From the NCBI GenBank assembly GCA_000091205.1, contig AP006489.2: DNA of 64,000 nt. One strand, written 5' to 3'. Position numbers and translations under genes: made by a program. Positions 5,585-54,110 of this stretch are shown piece after piece. The stretch's first letter is position 1; every line of letters starts with the position of its first letter. The notes below the pieces were generated by a model. It was not told the origin of the DNA. It did no database searches and saw only the letters and a program-made list of their open reading frames with translations. This stretch comes from Cyanidioschyzon merolae. Its lineage: Eukaryota.

Positions 5585-7294
5585 TCAGATGACGGCCGAT
5601 GAACGCCGTGCCTTTCGGATGAGAGCGTGAAGTCGATTCTTCACCGCATTCTCTGAACGCCCCTTGAGTTTCGAAGCGATGAAGGCCCACGCTGGCCCGC
5701 GTCGCTCATACTCGCGCAGGATGATGAGATCCTCACGGGCACTAAAGGGCTCGTGCCGAATACTCGGATCCAAATAGTTCCGATATCGTTCACGGCAGCG
5801 GGCGGCAGTACGTCCCGGCAAGCGTGACGCGATCTGCGTCCACGGTATTCGCAGGCCCGACACAGAGACCTGGACATTGCCGTAGGCGTTTCGTGTAGGG
5901 TCGTATTCGCTATCGGGCTGATCATGATCATCATCTTCATGGGGCCAGAGTCCACGAGGTTCCCTATCCCGCGTCATGTGCGCACCAGTTCGCAGCGTGG
6001 ACAGATGCGCTTCCACAAGCTGGCGCAGACGATTGTCCTCCTCGGGGGTCCAGTCACGTCGCTTGCGGTTATCTTTCTCGATGCCGTTATTCAAGGGAAT
6101 GGAATCAGCGAGATATTCTTGCAAGGACGTGTCTATCGTCTGCTCCGTGCCCGGACTCGGCTTTGTTTTGAGCTTTTTTGCCGTCCGGGGATGATCTTCT
6201 CCGAAAGAATCGGGTTCGCCGCCAGCACCCGCGACGTCTCTTTTTAGCGACAAGCTCCGAGTCGGCATCGACGACGATGCCGAGACGTCCGCGGACGATG
6301 TTCTGCGCCCATGGTCGCTGCCTCCACGAGAAGCGCGCAACGCTTCCCATCCGATCGAATGGAGGACCTGCTGAACAGCGCTCGCATGAGAGGCCTCCAG
6401 GAGATGCGCGCAGAAGATGCAAACATTAGGCTGTTGTGTATCTGTCGATAGATCATCGAAGCAGGCGGGGCCAGCGCGCGCTATGGAACTCGTTTCCGAC
6501 AACGGAGTGCTGCGGGCGCGACACCAAGGCGTCGTCGTCGTCGTCGTCGAAGATGCTGACGGGTCGCTGCCCACACAGAACGGGCTCATGGCATCCAGGC
6601 GAGTTTGCGTGTCGAGGTGCACGGGCTGAGGTGTCACCGGCGAGAGCGCTGCTGAATGCGCCGCGGCGTTCGCAGCACCGACGAGGTCGCCTCCATCGAG
6701 CGAAGTATTTAACGGTGCACGCTTCCAGTTTGGATACCCTACACCTTTGAGGTCGTCTACTAAAATCGATGAGCATACGGAGTGCGTCCCGTGGTCGCTC
6801 TCCGACATCGTATCCTGACTAAGGCTCTCGATCGTGCCGGAAAGCGCCTCGGCAGTAAACCTGTGCAACCAGGTTTTCCACCCTTCGGTAAGACTATCGC
6901 TTGCGTACGAGAAACTAGAGTGCTCGTGTGGCTCAGGTCCAAGAAGCGGCAGCCAGTCAACAGGGATACAAGATAACTCGCTGGTACTCTGCTCCCCGGT
7001 TTCCGCACAAGTTGCCATAGAGCATAAAACTTCTAGTAGCCGATGAAGATATTTGGGTATGCCACTTGGCACGCAACGTACCAGAGAAAAAAAGCACGAA
7101 AATATCGTTGTGCTTTCGACTTTGTACACAAAACACCAACACAATTTATCACCTCGAGCAACCGTCGTATGGCTTCGTGAACCCGTCTGCATCGTCAGCT
7201 GTCCCCCGTCGTGCGGTACGTACCGCAAGCGTCTTGTCCCCGAATTCGCGGGCGCATCGAGCGCGCATCGAGTGCGGCGCGAGATCGAATGCAT
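5585..7294 (-). CDS. R2R3-type Myb (SANT) DNA-binding transcription factor
   Basis: Two tandem Myb repeats near the C-terminus: WTPEEDNRLRQLV...WTQIASRLPGRTAARCRERYRNYLDP, and FSAREDLIILREYERRGPAWAFIASKLKGRSENAVKNRLHALIRK. Acidic/Ser-rich N-terminal region. True start uncertain: the first roughly 90 codons cross an AT-rich stretch, and an alternative ATG is at 7018. Confidence 0.7.
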   Translation of the reverse strand: MHSISRRTRCALDAPANSGTRRLRYVPHDGGQLTMQTGSRSHTTVARGDKLCWCFVYKVESTTIFSCFFSLVRCVPSGIPKYLHRLLEVLCSMATCAETGEQSTSELSCIPVDWLPLLGPEPHEHSSFSYASDSLTEGWKTWLHRFTAEALSGTIESLSQDTMSESDHGTHSVCSSILVDDLKGVGYPNWKRAPLNTSLDGGDLVGAANAAAHSAALSPVTPQPVHLDTQTRLDAMSPFCVGSDPSASSTTTTTTPWCRARSTPLSETSSIARAGPACFDDLSTDTQQPNVCIFCAHLLEASHASAVQQVLHSIGWEALRASRGGSDHGRRTSSADVSASSSMPTRSLSLKRDVAGAGGEPDSFGEDHPRTAKKLKTKPSPGTEQTIDTSLQEYLADSIPLNNGIEKDNRKRRDWTPEEDNRLRQLVEAHLSTLRTGAHMTRDREPRGLWPHEDDDHDQPDSEYDPTRNAYGNVQVSVSGLRIPWTQIASRLPGRTAARCRERYRNYLDPSIRHEPFSAREDLIILREYERRGPAWAFIASKLKGRSENAVKNRLHALIRKARRSSAVI

Positions 7295-7452
7295 CGCTGC
7301 GCCACGTCTGCCGATGAAAGACGCTCCCGTTGCAGCGCAAATTAGTCGATCCGCTGCCGAGTGGCGCCAGATCGCTGCGCCACGTCTGCCGATGAAAGAC
7401 GCTCCTGTTGCGGCGTAAATTAGTCGATCCGCTGCCGAGTGGCGCCAGATCG
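7293..7452. repeat. 78-bp direct tandem duplication (2 copies plus partial third) with 11-bp inverted repeat / hairpin
   Basis: Unit atcgctgcgccacgtctgccgatgaaagacgctcc(c/t)gttgc(a/g)gcg(c/t)aaattagtcgatccgctgccgagtggcgccag occurs at 7293-7370 and 7371-7448. attagtcgatc (7419-7429) is the reverse complement of gatcgactaat (7448-7458). Confidence 0.9.
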
Positions 7453-8006
7453 ACTAATCTGGACACGGACCCGGCGGCAAGCGGCGCACAGCGGCCGGCC
7501 AGTGATCGCGGATCGAGTGGCGTGCGTGTTTGCCCTTCGTGGACGCGGGCGACTGCGCAAGTGGACACGACACCTCCGTTCAACGGCAGTGCCGCGAATT
7601 TGGCGACGACGACGACGACGATTCGGGGATGAGCGTTCATTGATCGTATCGATGTGAGATGTATCATTTGATTCATGTGGAATCATAGAGTTCAAGATAT
7701 TTGGGGCGGAAGGTTTCAGATGGGTTCGGGTTTCTGTAAACGTTGGGATACGCGTTGCAGGGATACCGAGTGCTTGTAGCGTTGATCAACAGGGTGCTTG
7801 CGCACTCTTGCTTGTATAGGAGCGTGAGTTGGAGGCGTCGCACCGGTGGAGGCCAGTGACGGCGCCGACGGCACCGTTAGCATGGGGCAAGACCCGCGTC
7901 GGCGGGTCCCATTGGGTCGCGCAACTTTTCCGGGACGCACGACATACTTTACAAGAAAATTCTGTGCACAAACGGCATCATGTGTTTCTATTGCCAGTGG
8001 TAGGAG

Positions 8007-10760: not shown

Positions 10761-11676
10761 GGGACGCCTGACCGCAGTTCAGTGTCACCGCTTCGATAAT
10801 CTCCGCATATACCTTCGGTGCGACCTTCGCAGCGGTGCCCAAAATGTAGATCGCGTCTTTTGGCTGTGCATCAAGTTCAGCGACAACAGCCGAAAGCGGA
10901 AAAATCTGCACCTTATAGACGCTATCCATGCGCTTCGACCCATGACAACGAAGGTGAAGCGCACGGAGAGAATTTCGTGCAGTGAACCAGAAAGAACTGA
11001 TGGGAAAAGGAAGCAGTTGAAGAAGAAGTCTGCAAGAGCCGGAGTTGATAACCATAGGAACACAACAAAACCTGAGTACGTACATCCGAGCATGGCAAGT
11101 GGACCCATTTGCTTTTACACGTTCATATACGCATGTGTAGGCAGCTTGACGAAAGCGTCCCATGCTGGTGCCAACGCGGAAGCGCCCCGCGTGTGCGAGT
11201 TCCCGTTGATACTCAGCGCCCTTCAGGGTGCAGTCAGGAGCCCGGTGCACGCATGTCTGCGCAGACCCGTCAAATCCCAACCGACGAGACGTCATACACG
11301 AACTCCGAATGAAGTGCGCGTCCAACCGATGCGCTTCAAGGCACAGGAACGCGATTCCGTGTCCGAGCGGTGATCGTTGGTGTGTCGCATCGGGCGTCGC
11401 CGGCTGAGCTGGGCATTCGGAGAATCCATAGCCCTGGATCCAGCCTGCATTACCGTTGGTAGGACTGGCATGAGGCTGACGAAACGTTTTCATAGCTCGA
11501 GAGGAGCCATGGCGCTCGATTTCCCGGCTGAAGGCAGCAGCGCAGGCGCCCTCGCGAAATGGGCGCTCTCCATGCCGCGGGCGTCTGCCGCTCGACAACG
11601 AGATTCCTGGTAGACGAAACATGATATGTATCATATGCGACAATCATGAATCTTTCAGTCACCTGCGGACAGAGGC

Positions 11677-13065: not shown

Positions 13066-13922
13066 AGAGGTTCGCTCGAACAGCTCAGTAAAGGTAGCCT
13101 CGTTCAATCGTCTTGCTATGTTCGTGCTGCGCACGATGTCCTCGTTCACCTCAGAGCTGCGCACGGATGCGAATCTCAGCGCAACCGACCGATATTCAGC
13201 GAGAGAAGCACCAGTGCCGATGGTACGCTCCAGACTCGGAAGGTATCCACATGCTCCAGGAGAAAAATCTCCGACGTGAAAACAGAGCTGCGCAACGCCT
13301 CGAGTCACGTTTCGCATGCTAGGCTCGTCGCGAGGCCGCACCCGCACGTACTCAGCTTTCCCGGGTACTGTCTCCAGCGGGCAGCGACGAGCACGTACTG
13401 GTGCCGACGTCAGAACCGTGGAGCTTCACGACCCAATATGAGCAAATGCCGCAACCCCGCGCGCGCCAGCCACATGCCTCACGCACAACCGGATGCTTAG
13501 GTTCGCTTCGCAGACGCCGAGTCCGTCGTCAGCTCCAACGCTCTGCAGTTCAGGCCTGTGGTGCTGGTGCAGGCCGATCCGGGGTATGGCGGCGCAGTCG
13601 GGTTGCGGGAAGTAGTGCATCGCCCGTGCCAGTCGAATCCGGTACGCTGTATGGAGGCTCTGCCGCTGACGACAAGGCTCGTGCGCGACTACGCCGAATA
13701 TCTGACCACAGATGGTGAAAAGAGTCGTAGTCCCTTTCCATCGGTCGATTGCAAATGCCCCTAGCGGTTCACCTGGTTCAATGCACAAGTGATCTTGCAC
13801 CATAGAACATCCAGTGCCACTGCAGTCGTGTTAAGCAGCCACCATCACCATCATCATCGAGGTCTTGACTCGGAGCCTCAATCCTGTTCGTGTCTCCAGA
13901 ACAGGCACCCACACAGGTGCGA

Positions 13923-16718
13923 TCAGACGGACTCTCCGCGCCGATGCCGCGAAGCATTCGCCGTCGAGTCCTCGGTCAGATGTTGCGCTTGCAGTCGAGC
14001 CTCGAGCCTTGAGAGCTCGCGCTTCTCCAAGAGGTCCCTGATCACTGCAGCGAGCTCAAAATCCAACTGTGCAGCAGCTTCATGCATGTGCGTACGAAGC
14101 TGCTCATCGTCCAAGGCGCCAAGACCCGCCGGTAACCTGCCCCCGAGGCCCATTTTCGAACTGGTCTTCTCTCGTTTCAGATAGGGTTCATGCTTCGCAA
14201 GAATCGAACGCGGCTCCATTCCATATTTCGCGTTGTAGGCTGCTTGTATAGCTCGCCGTCTTTCGGTTTCTGAGATCGCTCGCTGCATCGAGTCCGTCAG
14301 CGTATCCGCGTAGAGCGTCACGGTGCCGGCTACGTGGCGCGCCGCACGCCCCATTGTCTGAATGAGTGCGGTCTCGCTTCGGAGGAATCCTTCCTTGTCC
14401 GCGTCGAGAATGGCCACCAGACTGACCTGAGGGAGGTCAAGGCCTTCCCGAAGAAGGTTCACGCCGACGATCACGTCACAGCTTTCTGTGCCAAGGGCTG
14501 AGAGCACCTCTACCCGCTCCAGAGCGTTCAGTTCGGAATGCAAGTAGCTGACCCTGAAGCGCTGTTCGCGGAGGTAACGGCAGAGTTCTTCAGCCATTCT
14601 CTTCGTTAGGGTGGTAATCAGGGCTTTCTCTCCTCGCTGTACTCTTTGGCGAAGCGAAGCGGCTAGGTGTTCGATCTGGCCCCGGGTAGGGTGCACCTGA
14701 ATCCGCGGATCAAGCACATGCGTCGGGCGAATCAACAACTCCGCCAGGGCACCGTCGGCGAGACACAGTTCGAATGGGCCCGGTGTAGCTGAAACAAACA
14801 CGCAGCGATGGACCTTGGTCCAGAACTCTGACTCACGAAGCGGTCGATTCTCCAGAGCGCTCGGTAGACGAAAACCGTAACGTACCAGGTTTTCCTTGCG
14901 TGCGCGATCTCCATGGTACATACCCCGTATCTGCGGAACCATAACATGGCTCTCATCGATGATGAGTAACCATTCGGGGGGAAAGTAGTCCAGTAGGCAC
15001 TCGGGTGGTACATCTGGTGCCCTGCCCGAGAGGTGCATGGCATAGTTCTCGATTCCCGAACAGTAGCCGTGTTCGCGCAACAGCTCAAGGTCCTGGGTCG
15101 TGCGTCGCTCCAGACGCTCGGCCGCGTGGTGCTGCCCTCGCTCGCGGAGCCGTTTGCAGCGGCTTTGTAGTTCAGCGGCGATAGCCTGGAGCGCCCGCTC
15201 GCGCTCCTCCTTGGGCGTCACGAAGTGCCGAGCGGGATACAAGGTCACATGGGAGCTGTATTCCACATCCGCTCCCGTTTCGCGATCCACATACCTGAGT
15301 TCGACAATTTGATGATCCTGTACATCGATGCGGAGTAATAGCTCCCGCTCATCCCACGACGGTAGCGAAACCTCCACCGCCGTATCCCTGATCCGAAACG
15401 TACCCGGATCGCGGGGATCGGCTCTGCGTTCGTAGAGCATGGCCTCCAGTTGTAAAACGATCTCGTCGAGACTGCAGACATCACCGAGTTTAAGGCTTGT
15501 CGCTGCTCGAAGGTACGTTGACGGCATGCCGAGGCCGTAGATGCACGATACTGACGAGACGATGATCACATCGGGGCGCTCGAACAGGGCGCGCGTGGCA
15601 GCATGGCGATAACGATCAATGTCCTTATTGATGCTTGCCGACTTTTCGATGTACGTGTCTGTGGCACTGTTGTAGGCCTCTGGCAGGTAAAAATCATAAT
15701 AGCTCACGAAAAACTCGACTGCATTCGATGGGAAGAATCCCCTCAGCTCACGATACAGTTGTGCTGCGAGCGTCTTGTTCGGTGCGAGTACCAGGGTTGG
15801 TCGTCCGTATTGCGCGATCACATTTGCGATAACGAAGGTTTTGCCAGTGCCCGTAGCGCCTTTAAGGACCTGGAATCGTTTCGAGGGCAAACGATCTACG
15901 AGGCACTGAATGGCTGCAGGTTGATCAGCGGCAGGTGTGTAGGGCGCGACCAGCTGGAAACGCTGATCAGGCAGTCGCGCAAAATGCTCTGCCAGTGTCT
16001 CCTGCTCTGCGCTTCTGCGAGGCGATATCGAAACGTCTGCGGGTATCGGTAGAATTTTGGTCAATGGAACAATTTGATCTGCGTCGTCGGAATAGCGGAA
16101 GATGTGCCAGCCGTGCTGTTCGAGGTGTTGTTGAGCGTCCGCGTCCAGTCGCCCGCGTCGAAGCAGCAGCGCCAGTTGTGTACAGAGTCGCCACATCACT
16201 GCATGCCGTGCAACAAGTCGCTCTGCGTCGGGTCTTTTCAGTGGCAGCTTGCGTTCTATGACAATGACCGCCATACTATCGTCCAAGTACAGTTTCATTG
16301 ATCGGGAGAAGCGAGCGTTTTTGGTGATCGCGTGCTCCGCACTCCCATTGCACACCTCTTGTACGAAGCGAACAAGTCGCTCAAATGGAGGCCGCTGCTC
16401 GGTCGCCACACGCGGATCCAAGGGACGCCCGTGTGCAGTTGCTGCAAGCACCGCTCGGCTCGCATCGTTCGTTGCGTTGCAGACGAGCGTCAGCGAAGGC
16501 CAGCGCCCGGCGCCGTTGGCGAGCAAGCGCATCACGACTGGGCCGTGGAACACCCCACCACCGATCCGCAAACGACACAAACATCCCGCGTTCCTCGCTA
16601 AACCTGACCTGCATAATCCTAAATTCCCTATGAGGAACATACACGCAAGCGCGTCAAAGCACAGACGAGAAGAGTTCAACACAGACACACACTCGACAGA
16701 GTTCACGCTGGTGCGCAA
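13923..16718 (-). CDS. uvrB: Full-length bacterial-type excinuclease ABC subunit B (UvrB) with a roughly 245-aa N-terminal extension
   Basis: Collinear with E. coli UvrB end to end. FQLVAPYTPAADQPAAI. Walker A GATGTGKTF. LVLAPNKTLAAQLY. FVSYYDFYLPEAY. IYGLG. HGYCSGIENY. IDESHVMVPQIRGMYHGDRARKENLVRYGFRLPSALENRPL. FVSATPGPFE. ILDADKEGFLRSETALIQTMGRAARH. C-terminal UVR domain LDFELAAVIRDLL. The N-terminal extension has a hydrophobic stretch ALACMFLIGNLGLC followed by an R/S/A-rich region. The exact start is uncertain. Confidence 0.9.
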   Translation of the reverse strand: MRTSVNSVECVSVLNSSRLCFDALACMFLIGNLGLCRSGLARNAGCLCRLRIGGGVFHGPVVMRLLANGAGRWPSLTLVCNATNDASRAVLAATAHGRPLDPRVATEQRPPFERLVRFVQEVCNGSAEHAITKNARFSRSMKLYLDDSMAVIVIERKLPLKRPDAERLVARHAVMWRLCTQLALLLRRGRLDADAQQHLEQHGWHIFRYSDDADQIVPLTKILPIPADVSISPRRSAEQETLAEHFARLPDQRFQLVAPYTPAADQPAAIQCLVDRLPSKRFQVLKGATGTGKTFVIANVIAQYGRPTLVLAPNKTLAAQLYRELRGFFPSNAVEFFVSYYDFYLPEAYNSATDTYIEKSASINKDIDRYRHAATRALFERPDVIIVSSVSCIYGLGMPSTYLRAATSLKLGDVCSLDEIVLQLEAMLYERRADPRDPGTFRIRDTAVEVSLPSWDERELLLRIDVQDHQIVELRYVDRETGADVEYSSHVTLYPARHFVTPKEERERALQAIAAELQSRCKRLRERGQHHAAERLERRTTQDLELLREHGYCSGIENYAMHLSGRAPDVPPECLLDYFPPEWLLIIDESHVMVPQIRGMYHGDRARKENLVRYGFRLPSALENRPLRESEFWTKVHRCVFVSATPGPFELCLADGALAELLIRPTHVLDPRIQVHPTRGQIEHLAASLRQRVQRGEKALITTLTKRMAEELCRYLREQRFRVSYLHSELNALERVEVLSALGTESCDVIVGVNLLREGLDLPQVSLVAILDADKEGFLRSETALIQTMGRAARHVAGTVTLYADTLTDSMQRAISETERRRAIQAAYNAKYGMEPRSILAKHEPYLKREKTSSKMGLGGRLPAGLGALDDEQLRTHMHEAAAQLDFELAAVIRDLLEKRELSRLEARLQAQHLTEDSTANASRHRRGESV

Positions 16719-18661
16719 CTGTCATGTCCGCCTGCCAACGGATTACAGGAGCGCGCTCCTTTGACGGGCGATTTGCTTTGCGTTTTCTCTCGGCGATCAA
16801 AAGTTTACTTTGACCATGCATCCCAGATTGCGGGATGCGTATTGGCTTTCGGAAAAGCGTCCTTAGGGCTGCGCAACACTACCAAGTTCCATGACGTAGA
16901 CTTGCATTCGGATGTACTGGACGTTTAGTACGTTCTATCGTGTGCCGAGTGCCTGCATTACTGCACCAGCCGTATCGCATATGCCTCTGTTACGGATCCA
17001 GCACGGAGACGGAACGGCTTTGCCATAGAACAGAGGGCGTCGGCTCGAGGTATGATTCATTCAACATGGAATCGGGATTCATTAGCCTGCTGGGAGCGTG
17101 CAAGCTGCGCAGACACACATGCTGCCTGCGACAGCGCGAAGCGACATACGAGGCGGATACCACGCCGACCAGGGCGATGCCCAGACGCAGCCTGTCCGCT
17201 GGCAGTCCCAGATTACACTGCGTTCCGGATGAGCTGCTGACATTTCCCTACAGGACTCGCCACTCGCGAGGGCATCGTGCACTAGCCCGATAGACTCGTC
17301 CGGCTCGCGGAACTTTCTGCCTAGAAAGAAGAGTTTCGAGGATACGGAAAGCGTTTCCCCCTCCTAGCGTTCTTCGTAGTGGGGGCGGGAAATCTTTATC
17401 TCGTTGCTGGTGAATCTTGAGTCTCTGTTCTTTGCCCTGAATAGCGCGCTCGATACGTGCGCCTTTATATTTGGCAGGAATTGAACATGTCCTGCTTCTC
17501 ATCGTTGAAGAGAAGCGCAATCCTGATCATTATCGTGTTGCAGCAAGGTGCAATGTGGATTTGCATGAAAGTCGTCGCAAAGTATAGTTGTGTATCTCAA
17601 TTGGGTTTCAATCTTTACATTTGTGGATTCAAGTGCTTTTTCGCTGTGTATAACAAAAACGTTCAAAGTGCGTTCTCTTTTGCAAAAGGAAAGAAAGGAA
17701 AGTTATGGAAGTAGAAGTGGAGGATCCTGCAGGCCTGGTGTCGGCGGCTGCCGCAGAGAACAAAAAACATTTCCGGCACCATAGGAACGGGAAAAGACGA
17801 AGAATCAACGGGAACGAGGGAGGGCGGACGTCAGACGCCGCACGAAAAACGACACTACGACGAGATGTTCGTGAAAGCTTTTCTTTCAAGCCGTATCGAG
17901 GATCCCTACAAGCAACCGTTGCAAGAGGTCATCAGAAACCCTGTCGAATCATATTCCAGGAGTGCTCAAATCTCCTGTTTAGGACTGATGCATATGACGA
18001 GGGAGATGTATCGCGGCGTGACGCGCATAGAAAGAGTCGAGGTTCCGGAGGAATTTTCTAACGAGACCTTCATCCGCCACTTGATGCTTGGCACGGGGGA
18101 AACCTCGAAGAGAAATGAGCGAGCGCATGACGTACAGGAAAATGACACCGAATTCCGCTTCAACGGTACTCGATACAAGTATGACGGGGACATTCACACC
18201 TACGGGGCGATCTAGTACCCCAGGATCCTGAGGAACCCCATGATCGTAAACTTCGACCGCATCATGATACGCTCCGTCTTTGCACTGTAACCGGGCCTCT
18301 CTCGCAAAGGGATATGGGCTATCGTCGATGGCATCACGAACGATAGTGACAATGAAGAGGAGACCGAATTCGCCGAAAAGAAGGCATCACCCGGGAGCAT
18401 GAATGAAGCTTCTGTGCTCCGTGCGGCTCTTCGAGAGCACCGTACGGGTTGGCGTTAGCCAATCCTGCAGCAAAGGTATCAGAGATGAAAAGAGATGCTA
18501 TCCCCTCATCCTGCGCTATTTCGTGTTCCTGAACCGAGAGCTCGAACGCAAGGCGGAGATGGAGCTGGATGTGGAAGCAAGTGAAAAGTCGGTGAAACGG
18601 AAGGCTGCGCTTCTGAAGAGGCGCTTCAACCTCGTTCTGGAATGCAAAAGCAAGTCGCGCT

Positions 18662-19887
18662 TTGTGGCTAGCGATTCCAGATTCCTTCGCTGCTCCAAGG
18701 AGATCTGTCCGAAATTCGATGTTCATAACAAGGAATTCACGGGAGAAAAACGGTGAGACTCATCGGAAGAATATCTTCGATTTCAAACGTCTCAAAACGA
18801 GCAAGAAAAAGGTATTCACGGTGACGATCGACAGCGATGGGGTATCCATATGTGTACATTATCGGCGGTTGAAGGCGGATCGTCCAATTGTGCCTTCGGC
18901 TTCGCCCGCGGCGAGGCACGAAGAAAACACGGAGGCGGGCCCTGGATCGTATAACCCCCAGAAGAACGACATCGTGGCAGGCGCAGACCCCGGGAACACG
19001 TATATCATAACCATCGCAGTGCCCAGGGGTGCGAAAGATGGTATTGCTGGCGGCTTGCGTCAGAAAGCCATGAGTCTTTTAAAGCACTCAAAAGCGAGAT
19101 ATTACCGAGAGTCTAGGATAATTCATGCGAGGAAAAAAGTGTGACGTAGAATGCAGCCGGGAAGGCGCACCTGGAGGCGATCAGCCAGGTGACGGGCCGC
19201 CGAGCGGACTCTGAAGCTTTTCAGGAATTCATGAAAACTCATGCTGCTCACTAGGAGGAGCTGTGGAGAGATTACGCAAAGCTCCGGTTGGCTCGTCAGC
19301 GTATGAATCTCTACTGTGGGAAGCAACATGCGTTCGCCAACTTTTTCAATGAGTTGAGCGCCCTGGAGGAGGACGAGAGTCAAACGCTCGTAGTAGCATA
19401 CGAAGCAGGGCGCTCGATGAATCAAAAACGGAGCATACCCGCTCCGTAAACCACAGCGTACAAGGAGTGTGCACAGTGTTTTGTCATAATACCGATAGAT
19501 GAGTTCCGAACGTCATATACGGACCATGAACGGGGGTATACACTTCACCGGGTCGAGATGGAAAAGTGCCAGAGGAGCCCTGTGAAGATATAGAAAAGTA
19601 AGGAGAGCTGACAGAAGAGCAAAATGGAATGGAGGGCGAAAGTTCCAGGGCTACTTGCACTGGTGAGTACAAGCGGTGGCAAGAAACGTATGGAGTTTAT
19701 GAATCTTGACTTTAACGCCGCTATCAATATCAGACGAAGTGCGATTCTGAAGACGGGACCTGCAGAGCTGACGAGAGCCAACTTTGTGGGGCAGCCAGTC
19801 AAAGTCGAGTTTTACAAGGAACAGCCGAAGCCGATATCACTCGAGCAGTCGAAAAAGGCTCGGAGGCGTCTACGCGTCGGTGTATAG
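18662..19887 (+). pseudogene. Decayed TnpB/Fanzor-like (IS605 OrfB-type RuvC nuclease) gene, copy b
   Basis: Ordered motifs in frame 1 and 2. RuvC-I-like [17 protein letters not shown] (about 18990). TS/zinc-finger motif KECAQCFVIIPIDEFRTSYTDHERG (about 19465-19540; compare TnpB VSPYFPSSQLCHDCG). RuvC-III NLDFNAAINIRRSAIL (about 19700-19745; compare ISDra2 DRDENAALNIRREAL). Spacing matches TnpB. Interrupted by at least three in-frame stops (about 19238, 19448, 19590) and a frameshift near 19145. Lies in an AT-richer island. Confidence 0.65.
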
Positions 19888-21179
19888 ACATATACGCTCT
19901 GGGTCTCACGGAAGCAAATGCAACGATGCGCTGTCCATTGGCGATACGCTGCACGCGTTTCAGGCAACGAAGGTCGCTGCTGTGAGTCACGGCAGCATCG
20001 ATGCCCACGAGAAAGGCAGTTCGATGCAACAACCTCACACCACACAGGATCGTTCTCTGCGGACAAGGCGAATCGTTCACACTGCTGCTCGGTGCCGGAT
20101 TGGCTTCAGATGCCGGCGATGATCTCTCCTCGTTCATCAGCGTCGACAGCAATCCGAGTCGCCCCGAGTCCGGGCACTGAATCGATGCAACTGTGGCGCA
20201 ACCATGTCAGATACTGTGTCGCGTTAGCCGTGAAGCCCGAACATGCAGTCATGTATGTGATGGTCTGCATCCAGTGACTGCAGCACTGCATCGGGGCGCT
20301 TTCGGGGCGTGCACAGGTGCCTCTGGGTCGATGATCCTGGCGAGCGGCGAGACGTCCGCGAGCATCCTCGCAGCGAAACAATGGTGATAGATGCGTCATC
20401 CTCGCATGGCTGCGTCCTCGCGAATAGCGTCGAGCGCGCTTGCCATGAGGCTTACCAGCATCGACCGAACAGACCAAAATCCCCAGAGGAAGGTACGGTC
20501 AAGGGCCCACGGGAAGCATTGGTGGTAGAATGCGGGCTGATGATTGATTCCCTCGATGCCGATACGCATCGCACGCGGAGGAACTCCATATCAAATGAAA
20601 CGATCCAAGTTTTCGTCACGTGAGCGAAAAGTGCAACAGGCTCGCATCGTCGGGCATACACGCTCAAGTTTGCGTCGCTTCCTGGTGTCATGAACAACAG
20701 CGTTCGTATGCGTTTTCTGAGATTGCTTCTTTTTCCTCTCTCATATTTCCGGCTTCAAACTACGTCGGTCTCTATTGTCCATCCAGGCTCTGTTGCCAGC
20801 AGTCGAATGACGTTCTTAGCCGCGGAAACGTTCCGATTTCGCTGCTTGCCGCTGTTGTCGACGCATTTCAAGTAACGGCGGTCGTTGCGATCCATGGTTC
20901 GATGGCCAGTTTCATCTTCTCTCTACACAGCCTCGGAGCGCCTTTTGTGGCGGCCAAACTTGGCAGTGATCAGGCGTTCTCGAATGTCCGCTAAACCTCC
21001 TGCTCCTCGTACGGGCGCCGCTCTGTGGCACGAGAATGCATGCTTCGCCTCTCAGCACATGCACTTGACGAACGCAGGAGGCTACCCTCGATGTCTGTCT
21101 CCGGTTTCCGCGCCCGACGGTATACACCGGGATCACAGGCTTCCTGTTGGCGAACTCCGCAAAGCGCTCTCTGTCCGTT

Positions 21180-21700
21180 GAACGCGCCTGCGAACACTGT
21201 TCCAATCGATGAAGGATGTGTGGAATGCGAAATTCTCCTAGATGAAACAACTACAGGAAAGAAAATCTTGGCTGTAGAACAAGTCGATAGATTTCGATCC
21301 GCTGACGTTTTTTAGGTAAAAAACGGTAACGCATGCTCCACTGGAAAGCATCGCTGCGGTGGTTCAAGTTCGAGTCCAGGACATTTTTCCGTGCAAACAC
21401 GAGAAACGGGAGCCTCCTTGAGCACACCCTTTGACAAGTACCATGATGCTGTCGATCGCCGCGTTCTCGATGGCTACTAAGAACCGAGGATTTGTGTTTC
21501 AAACGGAATCGCTTGTTTCAGGTGAGAATCTCAGTGAATTTTCGGTACGAGGGTACGACCTAGCCGTCAATGGATAACGTGGCGCTTTTTTCATCGTCAA
21601 TCTAGAGGCACAGAGCGCTGCGCCCTCGAGTTGCCTTTGTACAGAAAGTTCGAGAACTTGAAGCATGTGTGATTTGAGCATGCTACTCGAAATGACCGAA
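21180..21700 (+). repeat. Composite dispersed repeat R1-R2, copy c
   Basis: 21180-21440 is homologous to 10270-10560 in reverse complement. 21420-21700 is homologous to 28450-28720 in the same orientation. Shared blocks: cctttgacaag, gtgtttcaaacggaatcgct, aggtgagaatctcagtga, gaagcatgtgtgatttgagc. Confidence 0.75.
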
Positions 21701-22845
21701 AAAAATCGAGGCTTGACAGTTTAAACTGGATCGTAATACTGGTCAATTTACGAACCTGTGTGCGACAGCGCCGCGAATCCTATTCATGCTGATGTCATAA
21801 CGAATTCCAGCAGAAGAAGCGTTGAACGGGTCACGCAGAGAACAAGATCATAAATCCTAAAACAACATATGGATCTGCACGCCCCTATTGCTGCACCACG
21901 AACATGGAGGCTGTCTATGTAAAAAATTTGGAAGAAAATCAAACAGCAGGAGCAGAGCGAACACTTCCGAGTTCCCTTTTCATCTGACAAATGGGTAAAC
22001 GAGGAAACAAATGCGGTTCCGCGACGGGCGCACCAATCGATCCTGACCCTGCGACGTACACCGCCGCGAGATACGTTTTGTTTTCCGGTGCACGATCGAT
22101 GATCCTGACTCTAAGAATCCCTCTGAAACCGCAGTTGCTGTCGGCAGTTCGGGAAACGACCGCTGTATCCCTCCAGGCCCTTGTCCATTTCACTGACGCT
22201 GGGACGGTCTATCCGTCAGAGATACGCTCTAGAGGGATCGAGTGAGCCGCCAGATGCCGAGCTTGCATAGGCGCTCGCAACAACGCAGCATTCGCCAACT
22301 CTCTGCATGCTCATCTGGGGATAGGATCGCTCTGCGGTGCCTGCATACCGGCATCGGGTCAAGCAGCATAATACGGTGCTTGCACTTGTCCATGACAATC
22401 ATTCAGCGTGCTCATCGATTCTACGCGATCGATGTTTTGGAAAGAGCGCTCGTTTTCATTCTGGTTTCTGATGCGCACAACCGGAGCCTTTGATCGACCT
22501 GGAAACAGTAGATCCTCGACAGCGTGGATCTGCGACAAAACGTCTCCTGGGCAATACTCGCGTTTTACCGTTGCTTGTGTCGCGTTATACCTGAATGCTG
22601 CCGTGCGCCAGCGTTCATGCGTCGGGACATTGCGGCGCTGGAGACCGCATTCTGTACAGCATCAGTTCGATGAATCGAACGACATGTTCCCAGATGCACG
22701 AGTGCTGGCGCGTACCCGGCACCAGGGCGCCATCTCAACGCAGGCGAATGCTCCGGATCCCGAACGAGAGCGAAGACATATCAGAGTCCGTCCAGTTTTG
22801 CGTTGCATCACGCAGCACGTCGGCAGCATATCCTCGAGTACATCC

Positions 22846-23545
22846 AAGTCGGCGTTATTCTGGCATGTCTTATTCAGACGAACCCGGATGCACCTCTCGC
22901 CTGGTGACTTTGCTTACGATACTAGCGGATACAAGTCGGCGTTATTCTGGTATGTCTTATTCAGACGAACCCGGATGCACCTCTCGCCTGGTGTCTTTGC
23001 TCACGATACTAGCGGATACAAGTCGGCGTTATTCTGGTATGTCTTATTCAGACGAACCCGGATGCACCTCTCGCCTGGTGACTTTGCTTACGATACTAGC
23101 GGATACAAGTCGGCGTTATTCTGGCATGTCTTATTCAGACGAACCCGGATGCACCTCTCGCCTGGTGACTTTGCTCACGATACTAGCGGATACAAGTCGG
23201 CGTTATTCTGGTATGTCTTATTCAGACGAACCCGGATGCACCTCTCGCCTGGTGACTTTGCTCACGATACTAGCGGATACAAGTCGGCGTTATTCTGGTA
23301 TGTCTTATTCAGACGAACCCGGATGCACCTCTCGCCTGGTGACTTTGCTCACGATACTAGCGGATACAAGTCGGCGTTATTCTGGTATGTCTTATTCAGA
23401 CGAACCCGGATGCACCTCTCGCCTGGTGACTTTGCTCACGATACTAGCGGATACAAGTCGGCGTTATTCTGGTATGTCTTATTCAGACGAACCCGGATGC
23501 ACCTCTCGCCTGGTGACTTTGCTCACGAGACTAGCGGATACCGCC
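22846..23545. repeat. 87-bp tandem minisatellite, about 8 near-identical units
   Basis: Unit actagcggatacaagtcggcgttattctgg(t/c)atgtcttattcagacgaacccggatgcacctctcgcctggtg(a/t)ctttgct(c/t)acgat repeats with period 87 (for example 22921 to 23008). Units differ by only 1-3 substitutions. The array is open in two frames, which is why ORFs 22408..23646 and 22595..23881 appear. Confidence 0.95.
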
Positions 23546-24248
23546 GTGCAGCACGCCTCCGGGTCGCCACACATGATATGCCCGTTAGAACAGGGCTCTC
23601 TGGCCGGGAAACACAGACTTGTTTCGGCGCTGCGACTGCTGCTTGAAGGTGCTCCCCCGTGGCCCAAACGAACTTCCTGTGGCAGTCCCATACCACGCAT
23701 CGCGCCTTGCTACCGGGTGTCAGGTCCAGCACCGCTCTCAGGGCCTCCGCTTACCTCACGACGCTCTTCTCGAACTGGTTTCGAGCTGCATGCACGCTGT
23801 TTTCCGAAACGCTTTTCTAACGAGTTCCGCAGGCGCCGTGTGTCCCGCTGCGTGTTCGCATGCGACTGTCACCAGAAGTAGCGCCCGCGTTCGAAAAAGG
23901 ACAAAAGACTTTCGTTCGCCTGGTTGCCTATCGCCGCAAAAGCGATATCACACATATCCGTCTACACCATGCGCTGTATATACTTGTTCGTCGCGTTCAT
24001 CTCCGGTTTCAGTGCTACGAACACTGGTTGAAAAGGCGGTAAGCGCTAGCCGCAGCTGGCGTCAAGCGCGTGGGTTGGGGTCGGCGCGCCTTCGCCCCAG
24101 GCTCCATCGACACCGTTTGCGGAGGCGACGACGCTTTGGAGCGCTGGACGTGACGGGTATCGTTTCTGTTATCTTTCGTAACGCCACGCTGGAAGCGAGT
24201 AAATAGTGTTGTTCTGGGGGAGTGCTGTGGAACTTGCCGGTGGTTCAC

Positions 24249-24853
24249 ATGTCTGCACCTAGTGCGGGCCCAAGTGAACGCGCGAACCATGTGGCGACAA
24301 CTTCTCGAGCGTCGCGACTCCGACTGCTAGCTGACCTGCGCGACATGCAGCAAGACCCGCCGGAGGGCTGCTCCGCGTCTCCGTACTGCGAAGATAGTAA
24401 GTTTTGGATAGAATGAGTGCGTCGAGCGTCTTGGCTCACGAAGATGCGCGACTCGGTTTTGAACACGAGACTAACCACTTGGTTGAACGCTCAGACTTGT
24501 ATACCTGGGGTGCAACTATCATCGGTCCCGAGGACAGTGAATGGGAAAATGCGGTGCTTACGCTGAAGCTGACGTTCCCAGAGCAGTATCCTGAGAAACC
24601 ACCACGAGTTCGCTTTACATGTGAGATGTTCCATCCGAACGTGTACCACGATGGCAACGTATGCTTGTCTCTTCTCAGCGAGAACTGGTCGGCTGCATAT
24701 AGTGTATCCAGTATCCTGATCGCAATCCGGAGCTTGCTAACGGATCCGAACCCAAACTCGCCCGCGAATCCCGAAGCTGCACATCTATTCTCAATGGACT
24801 ACAATGATTACAAGCGGCGGGTGCGGCGAATTGCCCAAAAATCTCTAGAATGA
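24249..24853 (+). CDS. RAD6: Ubiquitin-conjugating enzyme E2 RAD6/UBC2 in two exons: exon 1 24249..24396, exon 2 24495..24853
   Basis: Exon 1 encodes MSAPSAG...SRLRLLADLRDMQQDPPEGCSASPYCED (human RAD6: [29 protein letters not shown]). Exon 2 encodes (N)LYTWGATIIGPEDSEWENAVLTLKLTFPEQYPEKPPRVRFTCEMFHPNVYHDGNVCLSLLSENWSAAYSVSSILIAIRSLLTDPNPNSPANPEAAHLF with the HPN...C active site. The frames differ, and the join at gtaagt...ag restores the alignment exactly (phase 1). Confidence 0.9.
24397..24494 (+). other. RAD6: Spliceosomal intron of RAD6 (98 nt, GTAAGT...CAG, phase 1)
   Basis: Donor gtaagt at 24397-24402 and acceptor ag at 24493-24494. Removing it joins CED|N|LYTW, matching RAD6 ENN-IMQW. 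The intron contains an in-frame stop and no RAD6-like sequence. Confidence 0.85.
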
Positions 24854-45956: not shown

Positions 45957-47660
45957 ATGACATTTATAGTGCCCTCGCGAGGAGTTCGTGCCCCACAAAA
46001 GCACGCAGTGTTGCAAGCGAGGCGTCCGCGGGGACCCGGTCCCTTGACGAGGTGCTGGCGCTTGGCACCCCTGCGGGCGAGCCTCGAAAGGCCGCGCTCT
46101 GTGACCCCTGCCGACGACGACAACCAGGTGCTCGGCTCGACCAAAGTACCGACTCGGAAACGGGAACCCACAAGTGCATACAGTTACATCGACAGGGCAC
46201 GCATCCGCGTCAAGGGAGGCGACGGCGGTGACGGGTGTGTAGCTTGGCGTCGAGAGCGTGGCAACGCACGCGGTGGACCCGCTGGTGGCAACGGTGGACG
46301 AGGCGGTGACGTCTACCTCGTGGCAGACGCCGGACTAAATACTCTAGTCAAGTTCGGAAGTGTGGTTCACTTCACGGCTGAGAACGGAGAAAAGGGTCAG
46401 CCGAAAAACTGCACTGGCGCCGATGGCAAGGCGCTGGAGCTGCGAGTCCCGCTCGGTACAGTTGTCTACGACGCAGAAACGGGAGCGCTCTTGGGCGATC
46501 TTGACCAGGTTGGTGCGCGGTTGCTGGTCGCACGGGGTGGTCGCGGTGGTCGCGGCAACGCAGCCTTCAAAACGGATCGAAACCGAGCGCCCGTTATCCG
46601 CGAAAAGGGTGAACCCGGCACCGGCTGCTGGCTTCGTCTGGAACTGCGCGTGCTCGCCGATATCGGCATTATAGGGTGTCCCAATGCTGGCAAATCAACT
46701 TGGCTTGCAGCGGTGAGCAACGCGCGACCAAAGATTGCTGACTATCCCTTTACCACTCTGGTTCCGAATCTGGGCGTCTACGCTGAGAACGTTGTCCTTG
46801 CGGATATACCGGGGCTTTGCGAGGGCGCCCATCTCGGGCGAGGGCTTGGTATAGGATTTCTCCGCCATATTGAGCGCTGCCGCATGATACTGCATTTGGT
46901 TGCAGGAGATGCACCAGATCCTCTCTATGATCTACAGGCTATTCGTTTGGAGTTGGCGTTGTTCAATCCGCGTCTGGTCCAAGACAAATTGCACGTCGTG
47001 CTCTTTACGAAGATGGATTTGCCTTTGGCCCAGCAGCGTTGGAATGATGCTTCTTTCCGCGAGGCGTTCCAGAAGGCAGTGGGGCACCGCCGGATTGCCG
47101 CCGTATCAGCAGTTACGGGCCAGGGTGTAGAGGAAACCATGCAGCGTGTATGCAAGCTCCTGGAGAAAATCCCGCAACCTGACCGCTTAAGCTCGCTGCC
47201 TGATGCATCTCCTGGTGTGCTAGAGCAATCGCGGAGCCCAGCAGCCGCTGATACCTTTCGTGGTGATCATGACGCCATCGGTGCGAGCGTGGATGGCACG
47301 TTCCGTATCCAAAAGGAGCGAATGGCAGATGGCCAGCGGCGCTGGCGCATACTGGGTTTGCCCAAGCTCGAAAGACTCGCTGTTATGACGGACTGGGCGT
47401 ACCCAGAGGCCGTGGATCGCTTTCAGCGAGTACTTCGAGCGCTGGGGGTCACGGAGGCGCTCTCGCAGAGCGGCATTCGCGCCGGTGATGTTGTCGTCAT
47501 TGCGAATATTGAATTCGACTATACCCCCGATGATAATGTGTTTTACCAGAATGCCCTAGAGGACGGTGTGGACTTGTTTAAGGACACAAGCGATGTCGAG
47601 ATCGCTGTGGATGAGGATCACGATTATCGTGAATGGAGCGAAAACGTTTCGCAATCATAG
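45957..47660 (+). CDS. OBG: Obg-family GTPase (bacterial/organellar type with C-terminal OCT domain) with roughly 85-aa N-terminal presequence
   Basis: Obg fold YIDRARIRVKGGDGGDGCVAWRRE...GGNGGRGGDVYL...ARGGRGGRGNAAF. G domain GIIGCPNAGKSTWL (G1), YPFTTLVPNLGV, ADIPGL (G3), LFTKMDL (G4). C-terminal OCT domain DGTFRIQKERMADGQRRWRILG...GDVVVIANIEFDY. The N-terminus MTFIVPSRGVRAPQKHAVLQARRPRGPGP is Arg/Pro-rich and not Obg-like. Confidence 0.9.
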   Translation: MTFIVPSRGVRAPQKHAVLQARRPRGPGPLTRCWRLAPLRASLERPRSVTPADDDNQVLGSTKVPTRKREPTSAYSYIDRARIRVKGGDGGDGCVAWRRERGNARGGPAGGNGGRGGDVYLVADAGLNTLVKFGSVVHFTAENGEKGQPKNCTGADGKALELRVPLGTVVYDAETGALLGDLDQVGARLLVARGGRGGRGNAAFKTDRNRAPVIREKGEPGTGCWLRLELRVLADIGIIGCPNAGKSTWLAAVSNARPKIADYPFTTLVPNLGVYAENVVLADIPGLCEGAHLGRGLGIGFLRHIERCRMILHLVAGDAPDPLYDLQAIRLELALFNPRLVQDKLHVVLFTKMDLPLAQQRWNDASFREAFQKAVGHRRIAAVSAVTGQGVEETMQRVCKLLEKIPQPDRLSSLPDASPGVLEQSRSPAAADTFRGDHDAIGASVDGTFRIQKERMADGQRRWRILGLPKLERLAVMTDWAYPEAVDRFQRVLRALGVTEALSQSGIRAGDVVVIANIEFDYTPDDNVFYQNALEDGVDLFKDTSDVEIAVDEDHDYREWSENVSQS

Positions 47661-53992: not shown

Positions 53993-54110
53993 TCGCGCAC
54001 GCACGCATACGCACGCACGCATACGCACGCACGCATACGCACGCACGCATACGCACGCACGCATACGCACGCACGCATACGCACGCACGCATACGCACGC
54101 ACGCATACGC
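53993..54110. repeat. 14-bp microsatellite (gcatacgcacgcac)n, about 8.5 units
   Basis: Read directly. It translates as [14 protein letters not shown] in the upstream-extended DXR ORF, so that part is not coding. Confidence 0.9.

What the first reader, a model, noticed from the sequence alone, without database searches (positions are those of the whole stretch)
13923..16718. Complete bacterial-type UvrB (NER helicase) encoded in a eukaryotic nuclear context with a long N-terminal extension
Every UvrB region is present and collinear with E. coli UvrB: the N-terminal FQLVAPY..DQPAAI, Walker A GATGTGKTF, the beta-hairpin/YYDFYLPEAY block, helicase motifs through QTMGRAARH, and the C-terminal UVR domain LDFELAAVIRDLL. 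UvrABC-type excision repair is a prokaryotic system; eukaryotes normally use the XP/Rad proteins instead. The gene sits between an HDAC gene and a transposon-rich island. Both its flanks are unambiguously eukaryotic: RAD18, Myb, RAD6 with a spliceosomal intron, KIN17. It has the same GC and codon style as its neighbours. It carries a roughly 245-aa non-UvrB N-terminal extension with a hydrophobic stretch (ALACMFLIGNLGLC) followed by an R/S/A-rich segment, which resembles an organellar targeting presequence. DXR and Obg-with-OCT in the same window show the lineage carries a plastid. That fits an endosymbiont-derived or horizontally acquired UvrB re-targeted to plastid or mitochondrion. No UvrA or UvrC is in the window, so the partners, if any, are elsewhere. 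This would be an organellar prokaryote-type NER module in a eukaryote.
Basis: partly seen in the sequence, partly recalled or inferred. Interest (0 to 1): 0.85.

Follow-up and report, generated by a model that had tools for sequence, protein, structure and literature searches.

The report
Red-alga nuclear UvrB repair gene
This is the already-annotated nuclear gene CMG133C of the red alga Cyanidioschyzon merolae, a cyanobacterium-derived UvrB DNA-repair helicase that probably works in the chloroplast with a separately encoded UvrC and carries a conserved but undescribed extra domain at its front end.

Summary
Window 13923..16640 (minus strand) encodes a complete, collinear UvrB (NCBIfam equivalog 858 bits, cutoff 743) with eukaryotic genes on both sides. 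From its first ATG the protein is 100% identical to GenBank BAM79644.1 / XP_005535930.1, "excinuclease ABC subunit B" of Cyanidioschyzon merolae 10D (CMG133C). So the gene is already annotated, and it appears in published expression tables.

It is not a contaminant:
- Its GC content and codon usage match its neighbours.
- The gene order GCS-FMO-KIN17-E2-UvrB-HDAC is shared with Cyanidium caldarium.
- Synonymous sites are saturated between orthologues while the protein stays conserved.

Its best named matches are all cyanobacterial. Nuclear UvrBs also occur in Porphyridium, Agarophyton, a brown alga, a haptophyte and a pelagophyte. These form one clade next to cyanobacteria, which fits endosymbiotic gene transfer.

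The 226-aa extension is not all presequence. About 83 aa are fast-evolving and transit-peptide-like, starting with a conserved MF. About 112 aa form a conserved folded domain with no known family.

UvrC is annotated in the same genome (CML058C). UvrA could not be checked. Plastid localisation is inferred, not shown.

The parts
13923..16640 (-). Complete CDS of CMG133C (905 aa plus stop), nuclear-encoded UvrB, with no intron
   Evidence: 100% identical to BAM79644.1 / XP_005535930.1. NCBIfam UvrB equivalog scores 858 bits.
16641..16718 (-). In-frame upstream ORF extension (TTG-first), probably 5' UTR and not coding
   Evidence: Three orthologous lineages all start at the MF[LIV][IL]G methionine. 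The GenBank model starts there too.
16392..16640 (-). Presequence, aa 1-83. It starts MF, is net basic (10 R/K against 3 D/E) and evolves fast. Putative plastid transit peptide.
   Evidence: Apart from the start, this segment does not align between orthologues. Its pN is 0.45-0.62, against 0.07-0.23 in the core. All 3 substitutions in this segment between the two C. merolae-type sequences are non-synonymous.
16056..16391 (-). Conserved N-terminal alpha/beta domain, aa 84-195, with no known family
15963..16055 (-). Linker, aa 196-226, ending in the conserved L..HF..LP motif just before the UvrB core
   Evidence: Alignment A1/A2. Other algal UvrBs begin to align to the query at residues 187-214.
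14022..15962 (-). Canonical UvrB, aa 227-873, collinear with bacterial UvrB
15837..15860 (-). Walker A motif, GATGTGKT
   Evidence: Invariant in alignment A1. K45 is kept.
15672..15707 (-). Beta-hairpin segment, VSYYDFYLPEAY
   Evidence: Equivalents of Y92, Y93, Y96 and E99 are kept. Y95 is F.
15222..15497 (-). Domain 2, the UvrA-interaction domain
   Evidence: Pfam UvrB_inter scores 51.2 bits (cutoff 22.9). Equivalents of R183, R194, R196 and R213 are kept, and E215 is D.
14946..14957 (-). Helicase motif II, DESH
   Evidence: Invariant.
14334..14666 (-). Helicase C-terminal domain, including QTMGRAARH (motif VI)
   Evidence: Pfam Helicase_C scores 71 bits. R540 and R543 are kept.
14022..14105 (-). 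C-terminal UVR domain (the UvrC-binding coiled coil), LDFELAAVIRDLL
   Evidence: Pfam UVR scores 27.4 bits (cutoff 21.5). Conserved against cyanobacteria in A1.

Best explanation
The locus is CMG133C of Cyanidioschyzon merolae 10D, a functional, intron-less nuclear gene for a UvrB.

Origin. The gene descends from the cyanobacterial ancestor of the plastid by endosymbiotic gene transfer. It has been inherited vertically in red algae and passed on to algae with red-derived plastids.

Protein layout:
1. About 83 aa of rapidly evolving, basic presequence that begins MF. This is inferred to be a rhodophyte-type plastid transit peptide.
2. About 112 aa forming a conserved alpha/beta domain specific to algal UvrBs, of unknown role.
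3. A full UvrB with its ATPase/helicase motifs, beta-hairpin, domain 2 and UVR domain.

Inferred mechanism. After import into the plastid it acts as in bacteria. It is loaded at a distortion in plastid DNA, uses ATP and the beta-hairpin to verify the lesion, and forms a pre-incision complex. Through its UVR domain it then recruits the separately encoded UvrC (CML058C), which cuts on both sides of the lesion.

What is shown and what is inferred:
- Shown here: gene identity, nuclear residence, constraint, cyanobacterial affinity, expression, and the presence of an annotated UvrC.
- Inferred: plastid localisation, actual excision activity, how the protein is loaded (UvrA was not found and was not excluded), and what the N-domain does.
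For: Identity:
- 100% identical to BAM79644.1.
- UvrB equivalog models are exceeded, the full Pfam architecture is present, and PDB UvrB matches at 706 bits.
- Catalytic and hairpin residues are intact.

Nuclear residence and age:
- Eukaryotic neighbours on both sides.
- Composition and codon usage match the neighbours.
- Synteny with Cyanidium caldarium, Cyanidiococcus and an uncultured lineage.
- Near-identical copies occur in hot-spring metagenomes.

Constraint:
- Synonymous sites are saturated (pS 0.65-0.8) while core pN is 0.07-0.23.
- In the closest pair, omega is about 0.045 for the core, 0.12 for the N-domain and 0.07 for domain 2.

Origin:
- After the 4 algal clusters, every other named match among the best 120 in 5.8 billion proteins is cyanobacterial, except one bin labelled Gracilibacteria. 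Identities are 53-56%.
- In an NJ tree of labelled taxa, the algal clade, the cyanobacterial clade and the algae+cyanobacteria split each get 100% bootstrap against E. coli, two sequences I judged alphaproteobacteria-like, Bacillus and Chloroflexota.
- Nuclear homologues exist in Porphyridium (on a 2.3-Mb scaffold with SET/PHD and PDI genes), Agarophyton, Cladosiphon, Prymnesium and Aureoumbra.

Partner:
- CML058C is annotated 'excinuclease ABC subunit C' and is strongly diurnal. Orthologues are listed for Cyanidiococcus and Cyanidium.
- UvrB is fused to UvrC domains in several algae, which argues that the two act together.

Expression:
- CMG133C has signal in microarray and RNA-seq tables and is listed among the Ni-stress DNA-repair differentially expressed genes.

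Targeting:
- The MF start is conserved.
- The window's bacterial-type Obg, with its OCT domain, starts MTF.
Against: - No localisation data and no targeting predictor were available. A mitochondrial or dual location is not excluded.
- UvrA, which normally loads UvrB, was not found. The supplementary gene tables I could read were truncated, and none listed an 'excinuclease ABC subunit A'.
- mRNA level is low, about 60-116 array units against up to about 16,000 for UvrC.
- With unlabelled diverse bacterial representatives added, support for algae+cyanobacteria drops to 14-53%, and two unidentified bacterial sequences intrude. Only NJ was available.
- No biochemical evidence exists for excision repair in red-algal plastids. 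A plant-organelle review states that NER seems absent from organelles (PMC6981420).
Confidence: 0.72

Rival explanations
1. A bacterial contaminant or chimeric assembly: a prokaryotic uvrB joined to algal DNA by mistake.
For: UvrB is otherwise a prokaryotic protein, and the gene has no intron.
Against: - GC, GC3 and codon usage are the same as the neighbours.
- The same UvrB-HDAC adjacency, and the longer GCS-FMO-KIN17-E2-UvrB-HDAC order, appear in independent assemblies of three other Cyanidiophyceae lineages and in a metagenome contig.
- The N-terminal extension is eukaryote-specific and conserved.
- No bacterial sequence is closer than 56% identity.
- The record is a 584,452-bp sequence of the C. 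merolae 10D genome. C. merolae genes are almost all intron-less (own knowledge).
Confidence: 0.01
2. A later horizontal transfer from a bacterium or cyanobacterium into red algae, rather than endosymbiotic gene transfer from the plastid ancestor.
For: - Cyanidiophyceae are known to carry about 1% HGT genes (PMC6629376, seen).
- Flowering plants lack UvrA, UvrB and UvrC (PMC6981420), so EGT requires a loss in the lineage leading to them.
- Support for the cyanobacterial sister position is weak once unlabelled bacterial representatives are included.
Against: - All algal UvrBs sampled (Cyanidiophyceae, Porphyridium, a florideophyte, a brown alga, a haptophyte, a pelagophyte) form one clade. Bootstrap is 100% with labelled taxa and 30-63% with all taxa.
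- They share the same N-terminal domain, which implies a single acquisition before red algae diversified.
- No particular modern cyanobacterial group is distinctly closer. Identity is a flat 53-56%.
- Codon usage is fully ameliorated.
Confidence: 0.15
3. The protein is mitochondrial or dual-targeted, or has been recruited to a non-NER role such as a nucleoid helicase or replication-fork remodeller.
For: - Localisation is untested.
- UvrA was not found.
- Most other algal UvrBs have lost the UvrA-contact residues of domain 2, keeping 0-3 of 5.
- The added N-domain suggests altered recruitment.
- Plants keep a bacterial TRCF/Mfd homologue without UvrABC, and the review suggests it may have taken on other functions (PMC6981420).
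Against: - The beta-hairpin, the UVR (UvrC-binding) domain and 4 of 5 UvrA-contact residues are retained in C. merolae.
- UvrC is retained in the genome.
- Independent UvrB-UvrC fusions in other algae point to continued joint action.
- Affinity is cyanobacterial rather than alphaproteobacterial.
Confidence: 0.12

Closest known systems
Bacterial and cyanobacterial UvrB (excinuclease ABC subunit B; e.g. Bacillus caldotenax UvrB, PDB 2FDC/1D9Z; cyanobacterial UvrB such as Chroococcidiopsis)
   Same: Full collinear architecture: domains 1a, 2, 1b, 3 and 4 (UVR). Walker A, DESH, motif VI, the aromatic beta-hairpin and most UvrA-contact residues are kept. Identity to cyanobacterial UvrB is 53-56%.
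   Different: It is encoded in a eukaryotic nucleus. It carries a 226-aa N-terminal addition made of a presequence plus a conserved extra domain. Domain 2 is unusually diverged: 26% identity to the cyanobacterial consensus, against 44-55% in bacteria with similar core divergence. The hairpin has Q97 replaced by L and Y95 by F. About 10 aa are deleted just before the UVR helix.
Nuclear-encoded UvrBs of other red-lineage algae (Porphyridium purpureum KAA8495736.1, Agarophyton chilense, Cladosiphon okamuranus, Prymnesium parvum KAL1510864.1, Aureoumbra lagunensis)
   Same: They fall in the same clade. All have N-terminal extensions, and the same N-domain is present in Porphyridium, Cladosiphon and several unnamed sequences.
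   Different: Several of them have lost most UvrA-contact residues. Several are fused to UvrC domains, and the Prymnesium and Aureoumbra fusion proteins also lack the UVR domain. The fusions are Prymnesium, Aureoumbra and P0192 (UvrC_RNaseH-UvrB) and MMETSP P0294 (UvrB-GIY-YIG-UvrC_RNaseH). C. merolae keeps UvrB and UvrC as separate genes.
Plastid-predicted bacterial TRCF/Mfd homologue of Arabidopsis
   Same: It is another bacterial NER-pathway protein retained in a photosynthetic eukaryote and predicted to be plastid-targeted (PMC6981420).
   Different: It is a different protein. Flowering plants lack UvrA, UvrB and UvrC, so the plant Mfd is an orphan, whereas C. merolae retains at least UvrB and UvrC.
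Restriction-endonuclease-like (PD-(D/E)xK) fold domains: AF1548 (1Y88), the Mrr-type domains of AspBHI and LlaBIII, NucS, RPB5 N-domain. This comparison applies to the N-domain only.

Membership tests
UvrB (excinuclease ABC subunit B) | Full-length match above the curated equivalog cutoffs | tested here: met
   NF003673 scores 858.1 bits (cutoff 743) and TIGR00631 scores 846.8 bits (cutoff 750), covering profile positions 1-649 of 653.
UvrB (excinuclease ABC subunit B) | SF2 ATPase/helicase motifs: Walker A GxGKT, DESH, and motif VI QxxGRAAR | tested here: met
   K45, D338-H341, R506, R540 and R543 (B. caldotenax numbering) are all conserved.
UvrB (excinuclease ABC subunit B) | Damage-verifying beta-hairpin with aromatic residues and E99 | tested here: met
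   YYDFYLPEAY. Y92, Y93, Y96 and E99 are kept, and Y95 is F.
UvrB (excinuclease ABC subunit B) | Domain 2 with UvrA-contact residues R183, R194, R196, R213 and E215. Their role as UvrA contacts is own knowledge (Truglio et al. 2004). | tested here: met
   Pfam UvrB_inter scores 51.2 bits. The residues read R, R, R, R, D, so 4 of 5 are kept and one change is conservative. The domain as a whole is more diverged than in bacteria.
UvrB (excinuclease ABC subunit B) | C-terminal UVR domain that binds UvrC | tested here: met
   Pfam UVR scores 27.4 bits (cutoff 21.5). LDFELAAVIRD aligns with cyanobacterial LEFEEAAKxRD.
UvrABC system | UvrC encoded in the same genome | tested here: met
   CML058C 'excinuclease ABC subunit C' appears in the C. 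merolae gene tables (supplements of PMC6606799 and PMC13353863). This is annotation only. I did not inspect the sequence.
UvrABC system | UvrA encoded in the same genome | not testable with these tools
   No 'excinuclease ABC subunit A' appears in the stored parts of four supplementary tables, but those parts are truncated. Protein searches list only the best 120 hits, so an algal UvrA could not be pulled out using a bacterial query.
UvrABC system | ATP-dependent damage verification and UvrC-dependent dual incision | not testable with these tools
   This needs biochemistry.
Plastid-targeted protein of endosymbiotic (cyanobacterial) origin | Phylogenetic affinity to cyanobacteria | tested here: met
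   After the 4 algal clusters, the named matches among the best 120 are cyanobacterial, except one bin labelled Gracilibacteria. The NJ split algae+cyanobacteria gets 100% with labelled taxa but only 14-53% when unlabelled representatives are added.
Plastid-targeted protein of endosymbiotic (cyanobacterial) origin | N-terminal transit peptide and plastid localisation | tested here: inconclusive
   The first 83 aa have a conserved MF start and are basic, poorly conserved and fast-evolving. No predictor or localisation data were available.
PD-(D/E)xK nuclease superfamily (N-domain only) | Restriction-endonuclease-like core fold | tested here: inconclusive
   [not shown]
PD-(D/E)xK nuclease superfamily (N-domain only) | Conserved catalytic D...(D/E)xK residues | tested here: not met
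   D-x7-8-ERK is present in C. merolae, Cyanidiococcus and the JGI lineage. The E position reads A, D, N, N, V, N, S and T, and the upstream D is not conserved, in Cyanidium, Porphyridium, MMETSP, Cladosiphon and the others.

The most novel reading that the evidence does not exclude
Plastids of red algae and of red-plastid algae run a streamlined, possibly UvrA-independent 'UvrBC' excision repair pathway. In this reading the lineage-specific N-terminal domain of UvrB, which has a restriction-endonuclease-like fold and has lost catalytic residues in most lineages, takes over DNA or nucleoid recruitment or loading. In some lineages UvrB and UvrC have become a single polypeptide. This would be the first bona fide nucleotide excision repair system in an organelle. 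It could be tested directly in C. merolae, which is genetically tractable.
Probability: 0.15. Interest if true: 0.75.

Novelty: already known. Interest (0 to 1): 0.4.

Why it matters
Reviews of organelle genome maintenance state that nucleotide excision repair seems absent from plastids and mitochondria and that flowering plants have no UvrA, UvrB or UvrC (PMC6981420). Red algae and their secondary descendants keep an expressed, selectively constrained UvrB and a UvrC. This suggests that at least part of the cyanobacterial excision machinery survived in the red plastid lineage.

The gene has been annotated in the public record of the C. merolae 10D genome. Even so, none of the 8 million papers searched discusses it. 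C. merolae allows gene targeting (PMC13353863 describes it as genetically tractable), so one can now ask three things directly: whether plastid DNA is repaired by dark excision, who loads UvrB, and what the added N-domain does.

As a discovery from this window the finding is ordinary, because it re-finds a correctly annotated gene. The conserved N-domain and the UvrB-UvrC fusions in other algae are the parts that look undescribed.

Tried and rejected
1. Contamination or misassembly. Rejected on composition, codon usage and four-way synteny.

2. The extension as UTR or intron, with a start at the UvrB core. Rejected. There is no Met at the core boundary. The extension is conserved as protein with omega about 0.12, and the start methionine is conserved.

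3. The N-domain as an active nuclease that replaces UvrC. Rejected as a general model because the D...ExK residues are not conserved and UvrC is present.

4. Naming the N-domain by sequence. These all gave nothing:
   - Pfam at E<=10.
   - A PDB profile search.
   - Two searches of 5.8 billion proteins, which returned only a Cyanidium UvrB fragment or nothing.

6. Using loss of UvrA-contact residues to infer loss of UvrA. The control showed that many unlabelled bacterial representatives also lack these residues, and C. merolae keeps 4 of 5. No inference was drawn for this genome.

7. Finding UvrA. Literature searches and supplementary tables gave UvrB and UvrC but no UvrA. The tables were truncated.

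8. dN/dS within C. merolae-type sequences. There are only 11 nucleotide differences, which is too few.

9. Transposons in the neighbouring island. No domains, LTRs or TIRs were found.

10. The exact C. merolae protein was not on record in the contig index.
Full report
**What is there**

Window 13923..16718 (minus strand) is a single 931-codon ORF counted from a TTG.

- NCBIfam's two UvrB equivalog models match ORF residues 253-899 over essentially their whole length. Scores are 858 and 847 bits, against cutoffs of 743 and 750.
- Pfam finds ResIII/DEAD, UvrB_inter, Helicase_C, UvrB and UVR in the bacterial order.
- phmmer against PDB aligns the core end to end with Bacillus caldotenax UvrB at 706 bits.

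**Which genome, and is the gene known**

From its first ATG (window 16640, ORF residue 27) the product is 905 aa. It is 100% identical to BAM79644.1 / XP_005535930.1, 'excinuclease ABC subunit B [Cyanidioschyzon merolae strain 10D]', which lies on a 584,452-bp record.

The locus tag is CMG133C. It sits between CMG132C (the HDAC-like gene) and CMG136C (the E2 enzyme) in published gene tables. The window is therefore C. merolae 10D nuclear DNA, and the gene has long been annotated with exactly this function.

In the searchable library, no paper discusses UvrB, UvrA or UvrC in red algae. CMG133C appears only in supplementary tables:
- a low but measurable microarray signal (PMC6606799);
- RNA-seq counts that differ significantly between conditions (PMC13353863);
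- a listing among the Ni-stress DNA-repair differentially expressed genes (PMC12112623).

**Not an artefact**

- The neighbours are eukaryotic: a RING protein, Myb, HDAC, KIN17, a UQ_con E2, FMO, GCS and Pol I A49.
- GC is 0.575, GC3 is 0.62, and codon usage correlates at r=0.88 with the other window genes, the highest value among the genes tested.
- The order GCS-FMO-KIN17-E2-UvrB-HDAC recurs in Cyanidium caldarium, where UvrB is only 58% identical, and in an uncultured lineage. UvrB-HDAC adjacency also recurs in Cyanidiococcus and in a hot-spring metagenome contig.
- Between orthologues, synonymous sites are saturated (pS 0.65-0.8) while non-synonymous divergence in the core is 0.07-0.23. 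In the closest pair, omega is about 0.045 for the core.

**Origin**

After the four Cyanidiophyceae clusters, every other named match among the best 120 in a 5.8-billion-protein collection is cyanobacterial, apart from one bin labelled Gracilibacteria. Identity is a flat 53-56%.

An exhaustive search of 50%-identity representatives returned many UvrBs with long N-terminal extensions. Cluster look-ups named them:
- Porphyridium purpureum;
- Agarophyton chilense;
- the brown alga Cladosiphon;
- the haptophyte Prymnesium parvum;
- the pelagophyte Aureoumbra;
- MMETSP transcripts.

The Porphyridium gene lies on a 2.3-Mb scaffold between SET/PHD and PDI genes.

In neighbour-joining trees of labelled taxa, three groupings each receive 98.5-100% bootstrap: the algal sequences as one clade, the cyanobacteria as one clade, and algae+cyanobacteria against E. 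coli, two sequences I judged alphaproteobacteria-like, Bacillus and a Chloroflexota MAG. With 26 unlabelled bacterial representatives added, support for the algae+cyanobacteria grouping falls to 14-53%, and two unidentified bacterial sequences intrude.

I read this as a single ancient acquisition, most simply endosymbiotic gene transfer from the plastid ancestor, followed by spread with red secondary plastids. Only NJ was available, and key taxa (Gloeomargarita, glaucophytes, green algae) were not sampled.

**The N-terminal extension**

It is 226 aa, not about 245, and it has three parts.

1. *Residues 1-83.* Apart from the start, these residues do not align between orthologues. The start itself is M-F-[LIV]-[IL]-G in three lineages. 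The segment is basic, with 10 R/K against 3 D/E, and evolves almost freely, with pN 0.45-0.62. All three substitutions in this segment between the two C. merolae-type sequences are non-synonymous. A phenylalanine near the N-terminus is the known hallmark of rhodophyte and glaucophyte transit peptides (own knowledge). The window's bacterial-type Obg also starts MTF. This part is a plausible plastid transit peptide, but that was not tested.

2. *Residues 84-195.* These are conserved in all four Cyanidiophyceae lineages, with omega about 0.12. A local HMM, together with inspection, finds the same domain in Porphyridium, Cladosiphon, an MMETSP transcript and four unnamed long UvrBs. The shared pattern is [RK]S..hY...hhV..[RK]K....DA...h...hhhh......A...L.
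   - It has no Pfam or PDB sequence match.
   - It has no relative outside UvrB in two large searches.
   - AlphaFold2 on 11 sequences gives a confident compact alpha/beta domain, with pLDDT 90.4 and pTM 0.83.
   - A D-x7-8-ERK motif exists in three lineages but is not conserved across the family.
   
   I therefore call it an undescribed, probably non-catalytic domain, possibly with a restriction-endonuclease-like fold.

3. *Residues 196-226.* This is a linker ending in a conserved L..HF..LP motif.

**State of the UvrB core**

- Walker A, DESH, motif VI, E99 and the hairpin aromatics are intact in C. merolae and in all algal homologues examined.
- C. merolae keeps four of the five UvrA-contact residues of domain 2, with E215 changed to D. 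Cyanidium keeps all five.
- Cyanidiococcus, the JGI lineage and one MMETSP sequence keep three. The other algal UvrBs keep 0-2.
- Many unlabelled bacterial representatives also lack these residues, so nothing firm follows from this about UvrA.
- Domain 2 is nevertheless more diverged than in bacteria of similar core divergence. Identity to the cyanobacterial consensus is 26%, against 44-55%.
- The UVR domain is present.

**Partners**

UvrC is annotated in C. merolae as CML058C. It oscillates strongly over the day (about 730 to 16,000 array units), and orthologues are listed for Cyanidiococcus and Cyanidium.

In other algae, UvrB is covalently fused to UvrC domains:
- UvrC_RNaseH-UvrB in Prymnesium, Aureoumbra and P0192;
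- UvrB-GIY-YIG-UvrC_RNaseH in an MMETSP transcript.

The Prymnesium and Aureoumbra fusion proteins lack the UVR domain. That is what one would expect if the fusion replaces the UVR-UVR contact between the two proteins. Some of these fusions could be merged gene models.

UvrA could not be assessed. The gene tables held were truncated, and bacterial queries cannot surface an algal homologue within a list of 120 hits.

**Verdict**

The finding is nonetheless a rediscovery of an annotated gene. Only the first third of the extension looks like a presequence, and localisation and activity remain inferences.

The points that look undescribed in the literature I could search are:
- the conserved N-domain;
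- the breadth of the gene across the red plastid lineage;
- the UvrB-UvrC fusions.

These make plastid excision repair a tractable question in C. merolae.

Noticed in passing
Proteins P0176 (Prymnesium parvum KAL1510864.1), P0201 (Aureoumbra lagunensis), P0192 and P0294 (MMETSP transcript). Not in the window.: UvrB is fused to UvrC domains in other algae. UvrC_RNaseH_dom lies N-terminal to UvrB in Prymnesium (which also has a C-terminal HRDC), Aureoumbra and P0192. In P0294, UvrB is followed by GIY-YIG and UvrC_RNaseH_dom. The Prymnesium and Aureoumbra proteins lack the UVR domain. Some of these could be merged gene models.
   Followed up: partly
[not shown]
   Followed up: yes
window 16700..24400: The roughly 7.7-kb stretch between UvrB and the E2 (RAD6-like) gene has lower GC (0.49-0.55) and no ORF of 116 aa or more with a Pfam domain. 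It has no LTRs or TIRs. In Cyanidium caldarium the same two genes are only about 500 bp apart.
   Followed up: partly
window 22845..23541: A tandem array of 8 copies of an 87-bp unit (98% matches) lies inside that gene-poor stretch. It creates two long overlapping repeat-derived ORFs, at 22408..23646 and 22595..23881.
   Followed up: no
window 53996..54110: A perfect 14-bp x 8.2 microsatellite (CGCACGCACGCATA) lies upstream of the DXR core. In the long TTG-first ORF it translates as a repeated [14 protein letters not shown] peptide, so the true DXR start is probably downstream of it (Met at ORF residue 143 or 205).
   Followed up: no
window 7293..7452: A 78-bp x 2.1 tandem duplication (96% matches) sits immediately beside the start of the Myb gene ORF (5585..7294, minus strand).
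   Followed up: no
window 24404..24853 (+): The UQ_con (E2/RAD6-like, CMG136C) ORF matches the Pfam profile only from position 19 onward. I did not map the exon.
   Followed up: no
C. merolae gene CML058C (not in the window): The annotated UvrC shows a swing of about 20-fold over the diurnal time course (about 730 to 16,000 array units). UvrB stays low and flat (about 60-116) (supplement of PMC6606799).
   Followed up: no
window 45957..47660 (+): The Obg GTPase with the bacterial-type OCT/DUF1967 domain starts MTFIVPS. It has the same early-phenylalanine N-terminus as UvrB (MFLIGN), which fits a shared plastid-targeting signal.
   Followed up: partly
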